Notes: generated by a model from the sequence alone, not told the origin. A stretch of DNA of 64,000 nucleotides from the human T2T-CHM13v2.0 reference genome, Homo sapiens (GCF_009914755.1 NC_060931.1); one strand, 5' to 3'. Shown: positions 42,191 through 43,870, numbered from the stretch's first letter. A program made the numbers and translations.

Positions 42191-43870
42191 CCTAGATCCT
42201 GCCAGTCAGCCATGCCTACACAACTGCCTGAGTTCTCACCACCACTGCCGTGGTGAGCAGCTGCAGTGCCACCTTCTCATTATCCTGGCTGGATATAACT
42301 GAGTCTTCAGGAAACTGGGGATTGAGCCTTGGGGATGCCCAGAGGCCCTGGTCACAGGGTTGGTGGGGGCATACGAAGATTACTCTGGGGTGGCCGGGTG
42401 CAGTGGCTCACGCCTGTAATACCAGCACTTTGGGAGGTTGAGGTGGGTGGATCACCTGAGGATGAGAGTTCAAGACCAGCCTGACCAACGTGGAGAAACT
42501 CCATCTCTACTAAATATACAAAATTAGCCAGGCGTGGTGGCACATACCTGTAATCCCAGCTACTCGGGAGGCTGAGGCAGGAGAATTGCTTGAACCCGGG
42601 AGGTGGAGGTTGCGGTGAGCCAAGATCATGCCATTGCACCCCAGCCTGAGCAACAAGAGCGGAACTCCATCTCAAAAATAAATTAAATAAATAAATAAAT
42701 AAATAAATAAATAAATTACTCCAGGGTTCAAGTTGGCATCGAGAATGCTTCTCCAGTGACCCAAGAAGGGAGTGCTGTTTCAAGAGGGGTCAGCAGTTGG
42801 AAGTGATCACACCTTTTCAGTTATACTTCAATTCCTTAATTAATCTTTAAACACTTTCAAATATGGAGATTAATAACAAAGTTCTTATTTTGAGGGGCAG
42901 TTGGATTCCGTTTTTTATTTAACATAATTTTTCTATCGTTACTGTCAAATGCTAGAAGGCTGTTTCCAAGGCTGGACAGCAGACTGTCCTTTCTGGTGGA
43001 TTATTAATGACCGTTTCCTTCAACAAATAAAACACACACAGGAAAATGTTAAAGAACACCCCGTCTTCTTCCTAAAGCTGTTCATCTGTCTCCCACGATT
43101 CACTAGATATTCTGAACAGATAAAAGTAGACCTCCAGATTTTCACTTCAGGGCATTGTCATTTATTTCACAGCACATTTTCTGTGACAACTTTCCAAGCC
43201 TAGAGGTCGAACAGGATGAGCATGTCAGAGGAACTTTTAACCAGGCATTGCAATTGGATACATATATTTTTTCTTGGAAGATCTGTTTCCTGGTCAGTCT
43301 GGTGGAATAAGAATTCTGAAAACACCATCTATTTTGAAAGTGATTTTTGATACACCAGATGAGGATCCAAATTACAATCCACACCTGAAGAACGGCCAGA
43401 AGGTTTCACCTGGGGTGAGGGCCAGCGCCTCAAAGGTTAAAGCAGCAGTGCCAATAATGAGACCCAGCTGAGCAGGACCCAGTGATACCCATTGGGATTC
43501 TTTTATCCTTTGTTGCAAAAGTGTGGACACTTTTGACAGCCTGGCAGATTTTAATTCCAGGAGCACTTTATGAAATGATACACTGACAAATCCAGAAGAC
43601 ATTTCTAGCAGTTTGCCAGTGATTTCTCACTACACTGGTACCGAAAGTGTAATCTCTCGAAGCCAAAAAACTGGAGCAACAAACATCCTGCCACCTCTAA
43701 CAAGTATACCAGTACTTGCATTCTACGGCATAAAGCAGGGCTTTTTCTTCCTCTTCTTTGATAGATGAGGACATGGTATAAATGGAAGTTTCAGAGAGGA
43801 CAAAATAAAACTGAATTCCACTTTTCTCTCACTGCAAAAAAAAAAAAAAAAAAAGAAAGAAAGAAAAAAA
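42191..43870 (+). pseudogene. DERL2: Semi-processed pseudogene of Derlin-2
   Basis: Matches IPPVSRAYTT..LTTAAV, QLEVITPFQLYFN, NIIFLSLLSNARR region, [56 protein letters not shown] 43438-43440; AATAAA 43804; poly-A from 43836; degenerate TSD AATGGCACAGCC/AAGGACACAACC. The symbol is the parent gene. Confidence 0.93.
42392..42715 (+). mobile_element. AluSp-like inside the DERL2 retrocopy
   Basis: CTGACCAACGTGGAGAAAC diagnostic; TSD ATTACTC(T/C)(G/A)GGG. Confidence 0.92.

What the first reader, a model, noticed from the sequence alone, without database searches (positions are those of the whole stretch)
43013..43244. DERL2 retrocopy appears to fossilise bypass of a minor (U12) intron
Seen: straight after the codons GGLLMT (TTAATGACC, 43012) the coding match stops. 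The sequence begins GTTTCCTT, one base from the U12 5' splice consensus GTATCCTT. It runs 232 nt, ends in ...AACCAG and joins the [13 protein letters not shown] exon. The whole intervening coding block (LFGLFVSLVF...NSIIVDLL) is absent. Recalled knowledge: DERL2 is a minor-intron gene, and failed U12 splicing activates cryptic U2 donors and skips the next exon. Inference: the template mRNA read into the U12 intron, used a cryptic CAG|GT donor and skipped an exon. This would be an ancient germline record of minor-spliceosome bypass, older than the AluSp inserted in the copy.
Basis: partly seen in the sequence, partly recalled or inferred. Interest (0 to 1): 0.8.

Follow-up and report, generated by a model that had tools for sequence, protein, structure and literature searches.

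The report
DERL2 pseudogene preserving a mis-spliced mRNA
This dead copy of the DERL2 gene was made from a wrongly spliced messenger RNA that bypassed a rare "minor" intron through a hidden ordinary splice site and dropped one exon, which makes it a tidy old record of a splicing error that is already known in principle.

Summary
Window 43013-43244 is unique in the genome apart from one place. That place is the first 195 nt of DERL2 intron 4 on chr17, lying directly after exon 4.

- **Intron type.** The parental intron is U12-type. It starts GTATCCTT and has TTCCTTAAT 12 nt before the 3' AG.
- **Junction.** The aligned block ends at CAG|GTGGGT. This is the only 1 of 62 GTs in intron 4, exon 5 and intron 5 that matches the U1 consensus at 7 or more of 9 positions. 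The copy joins it to the first base of exon 6.
- **Exon 5.** The 196-nt exon 5 is absent from chr7.

- Intron 3 is also U12-type and was removed, so there was no general failure of minor splicing.
- The copy also keeps 206 nt of the U2-type intron 1, through a second downstream donor.
- The copy runs from 42194 to about 43871, well beyond the RefSeq span.

The isoform is probably not new. A latent 5' splice site in DERL2 intron 4 was shown by RT-PCR (PMC3510495). Ensembl 75 lists transcripts that retain the start of intron 4 (PMC6800510, Table S2).

Verdict: real, neatly explained, and of modest novelty.

The parts
42181..42192 (+). possible 5' target-site duplication of the retrocopy (pairs with 43870-43881)
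   Evidence: 9 of 12 bases identical at the two ends of the copy. 127 of 2000 random pairs of places reach this, so the support is weak.
42194..42252 (+). DERL2 exon 1 coding part, 5'-truncated (starts about codon 11-12)
   Evidence: 49 matches and 10 mismatches to chr17:5379870-5379812. No similarity upstream of 42194.
42253..42793 (+). first 206 nt of DERL2 intron 1 (U2-type), kept through a downstream donor and interrupted by the Alu
   Evidence: 177 matches and 28 mismatches to chr17:5379811-5379606. In the parent the block is followed by GTCAGT (CAG|GTCAGT). The copy joins it to the first base of exon 2.
42392..42714 (+). Alu inserted into the retrocopy after retroposition
   Evidence: Absent from the parent. 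Flanked by 13-nt direct repeats at 42379-42391 and 42715-42727, 11 of 13 identical, which match a single parental site. Subfamily not tested.
42794..42860 (+). DERL2 exon 2
   Evidence: 63 matches, 3 mismatches.
42861..42933 (+). DERL2 exon 3. Its junction with exon 4 shows that the U12-type intron 3 was removed.
   Evidence: 64 matches, 9 mismatches. Two bases are missing at the exon 3/4 junction.
42934..43012 (+). DERL2 exon 4 (ends TTAATGACC)
   Evidence: 71 matches, 8 mismatches, 15 bases deleted in the copy.
43013..43244 (+). first 195 nt of the U12-type intron 4 of DERL2, the 'latent exon' that ends at a cryptic U2 donor
   Evidence: E 2.5e-37 to chr17:5374843-5375034, with only 2 places in the genome. 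172 matches, 22 mismatches, 38 extra bases in the copy. The parent continues with GTGGGT.
43245..43335 (+). DERL2 exon 6, joined directly to the intron 4 piece (exon 5 skipped)
   Evidence: 81 matches, 10 mismatches. Pfam DER1 profile positions 163-191. Parental exon 5 covers positions 99-162.
43336..43835 (+). DERL2 exon 7: end of the coding sequence (to 43440) and the 3' UTR
   Evidence: Coding part 95 matches, 10 mismatches. 3' UTR 356 matches, 37 mismatches.
43836..43871 (+). poly(A) tail at the parental polyadenylation site
   Evidence: The A-rich run starts where similarity to the parent ends, about 25-30 nt after an AATAAA that the parent shares.

Best explanation
Window 42194-43871 is a single processed pseudogene of DERL2, made by reverse transcription of a polyadenylated but mis-spliced DERL2 mRNA. 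In that mRNA the U12-type 5' splice site of intron 4 was not used. The major (U2-type) spliceosome instead used a strong cryptic donor 195 nt inside the intron (CAG|GTGGGT) and joined it to the next good U2-type acceptor, that of exon 6. This removed the rest of intron 4, exon 5 and intron 5 in one step. The same mRNA also used a downstream donor 206 nt into intron 1.

Introns 2, 3 and 6 were removed normally, and intron 3 is itself U12-type. The product carried premature stop codons. An Alu later landed inside the copy.

Shown: the alignment, the exact junctions, the splice signals in the parent, and the absence of exon 5. Inferred: the order of splicing events, L1 as the source of reverse transcriptase, germline origin, and 'failure' of U12 recognition as the trigger.
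For: - **Uniqueness and position.** The 232 nt match only the window itself and chr17:5374843-5375034, directly after exon 4.
- **Alignment.** A global alignment of 42194-43840 to the parental pieces is collinear. There are 1128 matches and 137 mismatches in all, and every junction falls on a parental GT or AG boundary.
- **Intron signals.** Parental intron 4 is 713 nt, starts GTATCCTTC and has TTCCTTAAT 12 nt before the AG. Intron 3 is 1419 nt, starts GTATCCTTT and has TTTCTTAAC 12 nt before the AAG. Introns 1, 2, 5 and 6 have GTGAGC, GTAAGT, GTAAGG and GTGAGT donors and pyrimidine-rich acceptors.
- **Cryptic donor.** The donor at +196 is the only 1 of 62 GT sites in intron 4, exon 5 and intron 5 with 7 or more of 9 matches to CAG|GTRAGT. 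It scores 8 of 9.
- **Exon 5.** It has no match on chr7. It corresponds to Pfam DER1 profile positions 99-162, and the copy resumes at position 163.
- **Retrocopy marks.** There is a poly(A) tail at the parental poly(A) site, the copy sits on a different chromosome, and it is the only such copy in the genome.
- **Parent gene model.** The seven parental exons give an open 239-codon frame.
- **Literature.** Both introns are listed as U12 in PMC6800510 Table S2. The donor and acceptor strings printed there for DERL2 are identical to what I read in L003. Cryptic U2-type sites are typically activated when minor introns are not spliced (review PMC8329584, passages).
Against: - The target-site duplication of the retrocopy is weak: 9 of 12 bases, and 127 of 2000 random pairs do as well.
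- AGGT is shared by the donor side and the acceptor side. A 4-nt microhomology jump of the reverse transcriptase on an unspliced RNA would give the same junction.
- The U12-type intron 3 was spliced in the same molecule, which argues against a failing minor spliceosome as the cause.
- The second odd donor lies in a U2-type intron. This shows that the template's oddity is not specific to minor introns.
- The exact junction was not found in the tables of PMC6800510. The predicted hg19 end coordinates gave 0 hits in the 2 of 3 files that could be read.
Confidence: 0.9

Rival explanations
1. The template was a partly unspliced pre-mRNA that still held introns 4 and 5. The stretch from intron 4 +196 to the end of intron 5 was lost either by a template jump of the reverse transcriptase or by a later genomic deletion, not by splicing.
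For: AGGT occurs on both sides of the junction in the parent, so a microhomology jump is formally possible. The copy also has other internal deletions, 15 bases lost in exon 4. DERL2 intron retention is seen in cells (PMC6800510).
Against: Both ends of the gap fall exactly on splice signals. The 5' end is the single best U1-type donor among 62 GTs, and the 3' end is the first base of exon 6. The same pattern, a downstream consensus donor joined to the exact start of the next exon, is seen independently at intron 1. AG|G on both sides is what any GT-AG splice leaves behind.
Confidence: 0.05
2. The 232 nt are foreign DNA, a repeat or other insertion, that replaced part of the copy after it landed. 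They have nothing to do with DERL2 introns.
For: RefSeq's alignment of the pseudogene leaves 42861-43244 uncovered (hub annotation). BLAST identity of the block is only 74% when gaps are counted.
Against: The block matches only the start of DERL2 intron 4 in the whole genome (E 2.5e-37, 2 places including itself). It is contiguous with exon 4 in the parent. In aligned columns it is 88.7% identical, like the exons.
Confidence: 0.01
3. The event was not an error. The donor at +196 is part of an old, maintained, unproductive splice choice of DERL2, in which U2 and U12 signals compete and the product carries a premature stop. The retrocopy merely sampled that choice.
For: - A latent 5' splice site in DERL2 intron 4 is switched on by heat shock in HEK293T cells (PMC3510495, passages).
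- Ensembl 75 holds transcripts with the first 153 nt of intron 4 inside an exon, and others that splice a 153-nt U12-like intron from the same donor (PMC6800510 Table S2).
- The two intron-derived pieces are not significantly more diverged than the exons: 12.5% against 10.0%, Fisher P 0.21.
Against: The divergence test depends on an assumed rate for the parental exons: P 0.0006, 0.06 or 0.41. No cross-species conservation could be examined here. One retrocopy in tens of millions of years fits a rare error equally well.
Confidence: 0.15

Closest known systems
Processed pseudogenes as fossils of splice variants (Shemesh et al. 2006, PNAS). I saw this only as a reference-list entry in PMC5470649. 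The paper itself is not held, so its content is recalled.
   Same: A retrocopy preserves the exon junctions of the mRNA it was copied from, including junctions that are not the canonical ones.
   Different: Here the preserved junction bypasses a U12-type intron. Two searches ('processed pseudogene' with 'U12-type', 13 papers; 'retrocop' with 'minor intron', 3 papers) listed no title on that theme.
Latent 5' splice site in intron 4 of DERL2 (Nevo et al. 2012, PMC3510495; passages read)
   Same: The same gene and the same intron. It is an intronic consensus donor within 1000 nt of the authentic one, preceded by an in-frame stop. My scan finds only one candidate of that quality, at +196, and a stop 29 codons into the extension.
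   Different: Their coordinates are in a figure and in supplements that I could not read, so identity of the site is inferred. They do not discuss the intron as U12-type, at least in the text searched: 'U12' and 'minor spliceosome' gave no relevant hit. Whether their product skips exon 5 is unknown.
Cryptic U2-type splice-site activation and exon skipping around minor introns in minor-spliceosome disease (PMC8329584 review; PMC6800510)
   Same: A U2-type donor near an unused U12 5' splice site is taken, and the neighbouring exon is lost.
   Different: Those are events in living patient cells with a defective snRNA or protein. Here it is a single molecule fixed in the genome long ago, and the second U12 intron of that molecule was spliced.
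Ensembl 75 DERL2 transcripts ENST00000573637 and ENST00000574700 (PMC6800510 Table S2)
   Same: Both hold the first 153 nt of intron 4 inside an exon. Only ENST00000574700 is listed as retaining the whole intron, so ENST00000573637 probably ends its exon inside the intron, as the retrocopy's template did.
   Different: I could not see their exon coordinates. The end at +195 and the skipping of exon 5 are not verified.

Membership tests
Processed pseudogene (LINE-1-mediated retrocopy) | Parental introns absent at exact exon-exon junctions | tested here: met
   Introns 2, 3 and 6 are absent. The 2|3 and 6|7 junctions are exact and the 3|4 junction lacks 2 bases. Introns 1 and 4 are removed from alternative donors.
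Processed pseudogene (LINE-1-mediated retrocopy) | Poly(A) tail at the parental polyadenylation site | tested here: met
   An A-rich run at 43836-43871 begins where similarity to the parental 3' UTR ends.
Processed pseudogene (LINE-1-mediated retrocopy) | Target-site duplication flanking the insert | tested here: inconclusive
   9 of 12 bases at 42181-42192 and 43870-43881. 127 of 2000 random pairs reach this. A gapped local match elsewhere in the flanks was also not significant: 9% of 500 random windows scored as high.
Processed pseudogene (LINE-1-mediated retrocopy) | Lies away from the parent gene and has lost function | tested here: met
   The copy is on chr7 and the parent on chr17. The copy carries frame shifts, stops, a 5' truncation and an Alu insertion.
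U12-type (minor) intron: parental DERL2 intron 4 | 5' splice site matching GTATCCTT | tested here: met
The parent reads acc|GTATCCTTCAAC. The copy has GTTTCCTT.
U12-type (minor) intron: parental DERL2 intron 4 | Branch-site motif TTCCTTRAY close to the 3' splice site | tested here: met
   TTCCTTAAT is followed by 12 nt up to and including the AG. The consensus TTCCTTRAY is quoted in PMC8848931.
U12-type (minor) intron: parental DERL2 intron 4 | Splicing depends on the minor spliceosome | not testable with these tools
   From the literature only. PMC6800510 Table S2 lists hg19 chr17:5383903-5384615 as U12. Mean retention goes from 0.077 to 0.205 and from 0.157 to 0.461, controls against patients, in two data sets. 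The sheet names were not read.
Cryptic U2-type bypass of a minor intron with exon skipping | Junction uses a U1-type GT donor inside the minor intron and a U2-type acceptor downstream | tested here: met
   CAG|GTGGGT scores 8 of 9 and is unique among 62 GTs. The acceptor of intron 5 has a pyrimidine-rich tract before its TAG. The junction is exact.
Cryptic U2-type bypass of a minor intron with exon skipping | Caused by failure of U11/U12 recognition | not testable with these tools
   A single fossil molecule cannot show the cause. The U12-type intron 3 was spliced in the same molecule.

The most novel reading that the evidence does not exclude
The donor 195 nt inside DERL2's U12-type intron 4 is not noise. 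On this reading it is an old, maintained switch at which the major spliceosome can pre-empt the minor one and divert DERL2, a gene of ER protein quality control, into a stop-containing product under stress. The chr7 retrocopy would then be a datable fossil showing that the same choice was already made in the germline or early embryo of an early primate, before an Alu landed in the copy. [quoted passage not shown]
Probability: 0.15. Interest if true: 0.55.

Novelty: new member of a known kind. Interest (0 to 1): 0.3.

Why it matters
- **Antiquity.** A particular cryptic donor in a minor intron of DERL2 was already usable at about 11% sequence divergence ago, which means tens of millions of years. 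The same site is still the one strong U1-type donor in the human intron today.
- **Annotation.** The pseudogene LOC100420648 runs from 42194 to about 43871, not 42793 to 43637. It holds two intron-derived blocks and a nested Alu.
- **A cheap survey.** Screening retrocopies of minor-intron genes for junctions that bypass the minor intron would show how often such products reached the cytoplasm of germline cells.

On its own, one example of a known kind of fossil and a known kind of splicing error is a curiosity rather than a discovery.

Tried and rejected
- **Inverted exon 5.** The minus-strand frames show nothing Derlin-like by eye, and the plus-strand match to the intron settles the matter.
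- **Repeat or foreign insertion.** Rejected: there are only 2 genomic places.
- **Other DERL2 retrocopies for comparison.** None found. The copy as query gave only parental exons plus A-rich chance hits among 38 matches. The parental last exon gave 2 places.
- **The exact junction in PMC6800510 supplements.** The predicted hg19 coordinates gave 0 hits in the 2 of 3 files readable. The prediction assumes the same offset from T2T as at the two ends of intron 4.
- **Supplements of PMC3510495.** These hold the latent-site coordinates and primers but were not readable. Figure 3 is not held.
- **Ensembl transcript identifiers in full text.** 0 papers.
- **DERL2 with nonsense-mediated decay and isoform.** 14 papers held the terms and 13 were listed. 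Of the two opened, one only lists Derl2 in GO tables and the other was already in hand.
- **Constraint on the intron pieces.** The result depends on an assumed rate and is inconclusive.
- **Shemesh 2006.** Not held.
- **Alu subfamily and absolute dating.** Not attempted. No consensus library or outgroup genome is on hand.

Full report
**What is at the coordinates.** TTAATGACC ends at 43012, GTTTCCTT starts at 43013, the stretch ends ...TTTTAACCAG at 43244, and an open frame reading [14 protein letters not shown] follows. The human assembly that holds the window can be searched. In it the 232 nt have only two places: the window itself and chr17:5374843-5375034 on the minus strand (E 2.5e-37). 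With the whole pseudogene region as query, the chr17 hits are collinear pieces of one gene. One hit, chr17:5374843-5375127, covers window 42934-43242 without a break. In the parent, therefore, the 232-nt block lies directly after the exon that ends ...TTAATGACC.

**The parental gene.** I fetched chr17:5365001-5381000 and read it on the gene strand. Seven exons give an open frame of 239 codons plus a stop. That this is DERL2 rests on three things:
- the hub's annotation;
- Pfam DER1 hits;
- the DERL2 donor and acceptor strings printed in Table S3 of PMC6800510, which are letter for letter what I read in the locus.

The intron lengths of 1419 and 713 nt also equal those of the two hg19 DERL2 introns listed there as U12.

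The splice signals are as follows:

| Intron | Length | 5' end | Branch-site motif and distance to the 3' end |
|---|---|---|---|
| 4 | 713 nt | GTATCCTTC | TTCCTTAAT, 12 nt before the AG |
| 3 | 1419 nt | GTATCCTTT | TTTCTTAAC, 12 nt before AAG |
| 1, 2, 5, 6 | | ordinary GTRAG-type donors | pyrimidine-rich acceptors |

DERL2 thus has two adjacent U12-type introns. This agrees with the mouse 'Derl2a' and 'Derl2b' of PMC8848931 (passages) and with PMC6800510 (passages and Table S2).

**The junctions.** I aligned window 42194-43840 globally to the parental pieces.

| Piece | Window | Matches | Mismatches | Notes |
|---|---|---|---|---|
| Exon 1 coding part | 42194-42252 | 49 | 10 | |
| First 206 nt of intron 1 | 42253-42793 | 177 | 28 | interrupted by an Alu |
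| Exon 2 | 42794-42860 | 63 | 3 | |
| Exon 3 | 42861-42933 | 64 | 9 | |
| Exon 4 | 42934-43012 | 71 | 8 | |
| First 195 nt of intron 4 | 43013-43244 | 172 | 22 | 38 extra bases and 1 missing in the copy |
| Exon 6 | 43245-43335 | 81 | 10 | |
| Exon 7 coding part | 43336-43440 | 95 | 10 | |
| 3' UTR | 43441 to about 43835 | 356 | 37 | followed by an A-rich tail |

The intron 4 block ends in the parent at CAG|GTGGGT, and the copy goes on with the first base of exon 6. I scored all 62 GT dinucleotides of intron 4, exon 5 and intron 5 against CAG|GTRAGT. This site scores 8 of 9 and no other reaches 7. Exon 5 (196 nt) matches only itself and a chr22 locus, presumably DERL3, and nothing on chr7. In Pfam terms exon 5 covers DER1 profile positions 99-162, and the copy resumes at 163. 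All three hold. The only correction is that the block is 195 nt in today's parent, not about 230.

- *The copy is larger than annotated.* It begins at 42194 inside exon 1 (no similarity upstream) and ends with the poly(A) run at about 43871. RefSeq gives 42793-43637.
- *A second non-canonical junction.* The mRNA ran 206 nt past the canonical intron 1 donor (GTG|GTGAGC) to a downstream CAG|GTCAGT, and was joined from there to exon 2. Intron 1 is U2-type.
- *The Alu lies inside the intron 1 block.* It sits at 42392-42714 and is flanked by a 13-nt duplication of a single parental site, 11 of 13 bases identical.
- *Intron 3 was removed from the same molecule.* It is also U12-type, so the minor spliceosome was working in that cell. 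The bypass of intron 4 was a local event.

**Mechanism.** The best reading is that the U2-type machinery took the one strong U1-type donor inside intron 4. It paired that donor with the next acceptor that has a pyrimidine tract, that of exon 6. The rest of intron 4, exon 5 and intron 5 left as one intron.
- *Consequence for the mRNA.* The extension brings a stop 29 codons after exon 4. The intron 1 extension shifts the frame to a stop at codon 104. The mRNA was therefore unproductive and a likely target of nonsense-mediated decay (inference).
- *What cannot be shown.* A single fossil cannot tell whether U11/U12 recognition failed or the U2 site simply won a race.
- *The main rival.* A jump of the reverse transcriptase, or a later deletion, on an unspliced RNA cannot be excluded outright, because AGGT lies on both sides of the junction. 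That rival needs both ends to fall on splice signals by chance, and the same pattern recurs at intron 1. I give it about 0.05.

**Retrocopy marks and age.**
- *Marks.* The poly(A) tail, the loss of introns and the different chromosome are all met. The target-site duplication is weak: 9 of 12 bases, and 127 of 2000 random pairs do as well.
- *Divergence.* Overall there are 137 mismatches in 1265 aligned columns, a Jukes-Cantor distance of 0.117. With recalled neutral rates this means tens of millions of years. I did not date it more closely.
- *Intron against exon.* The intron-derived blocks are 12.5% diverged against 10.0% for exonic blocks (Fisher P 0.21). Whether this is less than neutrality predicts depends on the rate assumed for the parental exons: P 0.0006, 0.06 or 0.41. 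I draw no conclusion from it.
- *The extra bases.* The 38 extra bases in the copy lie mainly in one block of about 31. They are either an insertion in the copy or, more likely, a deletion in the parental intron since then. This was not testable here.

**Is it new?**
- *The kind is known.* Processed pseudogenes are known to preserve non-canonical splice forms. I recall this from Shemesh et al. 2006, which I saw only as a reference entry; the paper is not held.
- *The RT-PCR evidence.* Nevo et al. [quoted passage not shown] Their latent sites are consensus donors within 1000 nt of the authentic donor that bring in a premature stop. By my scan only the +196 site fits, so it is very probably the same site. 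Their figure and supplements were not readable.
- *The annotated transcripts.* PMC6800510 Table S2 lists an extra 153-nt 'U12*' intron that starts at the same donor. ENST00000573637 and ENST00000574700 hold those 153 nt inside an exon, and only ENST00000574700 retains the whole of intron 4. ENST00000573637 therefore probably carries the same exon 4 extension.
- *What was not found.* The exact junction to exon 6 was not in those tables (0 hits). The transcript identifiers appear in no full text searched.
- *Searches on the theme.* Two searches for retrocopies in connection with minor introns listed nothing on the theme (13 papers; 3 papers).

The new elements are modest: this pseudogene's origin from that isoform, its true extent, and the antiquity of the cryptic donor.

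**Verdict.** It is a new member of a known kind. Interest is about 0.3. The boldest reading still open is that the +196 donor is a maintained unproductive-splicing switch of DERL2 and that retrocopies can date such switches. I put that at about 0.15.

Noticed in passing
window 42194-42793: The RefSeq pseudogene span (42793-43637) misses about 600 nt at the 5' end of the retrocopy: part of exon 1 and 206 nt of intron 1, kept through a downstream donor (CAG|GTCAGT in the parent). It also misses exons 3-4, the intron 4 block, and the last 200 nt of the 3' UTR with the poly(A) tail.
   Followed up: yes
window 42931-42934 (exon 3/exon 4 junction): Two bases of a TATA run are missing exactly at the junction left by the U12-type intron 3. 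This is either later slippage or use of a 3' splice site 2 nt downstream. The two cannot be told apart here.
   Followed up: partly
window 43106-43143 against chr17 intron 4: The copy carries about 31 bases (38 in all over the block) that today's parental intron lacks. This is probably a deletion in the DERL2 intron after the retroposition, in which case the pseudogene preserves older intron sequence. Outgroup genomes are needed to decide.
   Followed up: partly
L003, chr17:5374882 (intron 4 position +153): PMC6800510 lists an annotated 153-nt intron from the U12 donor of intron 4 to a TAG at +153, preceded by TTTCCAAAC. Together with the +196 donor this would define a 42-nt cassette exon inside the minor intron. 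In the copy these 153 nt are retained.
   Followed up: partly
L003, chr17:5376547-5375129 and 5375034-5374322: DERL2 has two adjacent U12-type GT-AG introns flanking the 94-nt exon 4, so that exon has minor-type signals on both sides. PMC6800510 also lists an intron hg19 chr17:5383903-5386128, which would skip exon 4 by joining the intron 3 donor to the intron 4 acceptor.
   Followed up: partly
window 42934-43012: Exon 4 in the copy has lost 15 bases in three deletions of 2, 3 and 11 (the 2-base one is the junction loss noted above). The copy as a whole carries many frame shifts and stops, so it is clearly non-functional as a coding sequence.
   Followed up: yes
chr22:24284849-24285012 (not in the window): Parental exon 5 matches a chr22 locus at 74% identity, presumably the paralogue DERL3. 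PMC6800510 lists two U12 introns for DERL3 as well, so the paired minor introns may be old in this family.
   Followed up: no
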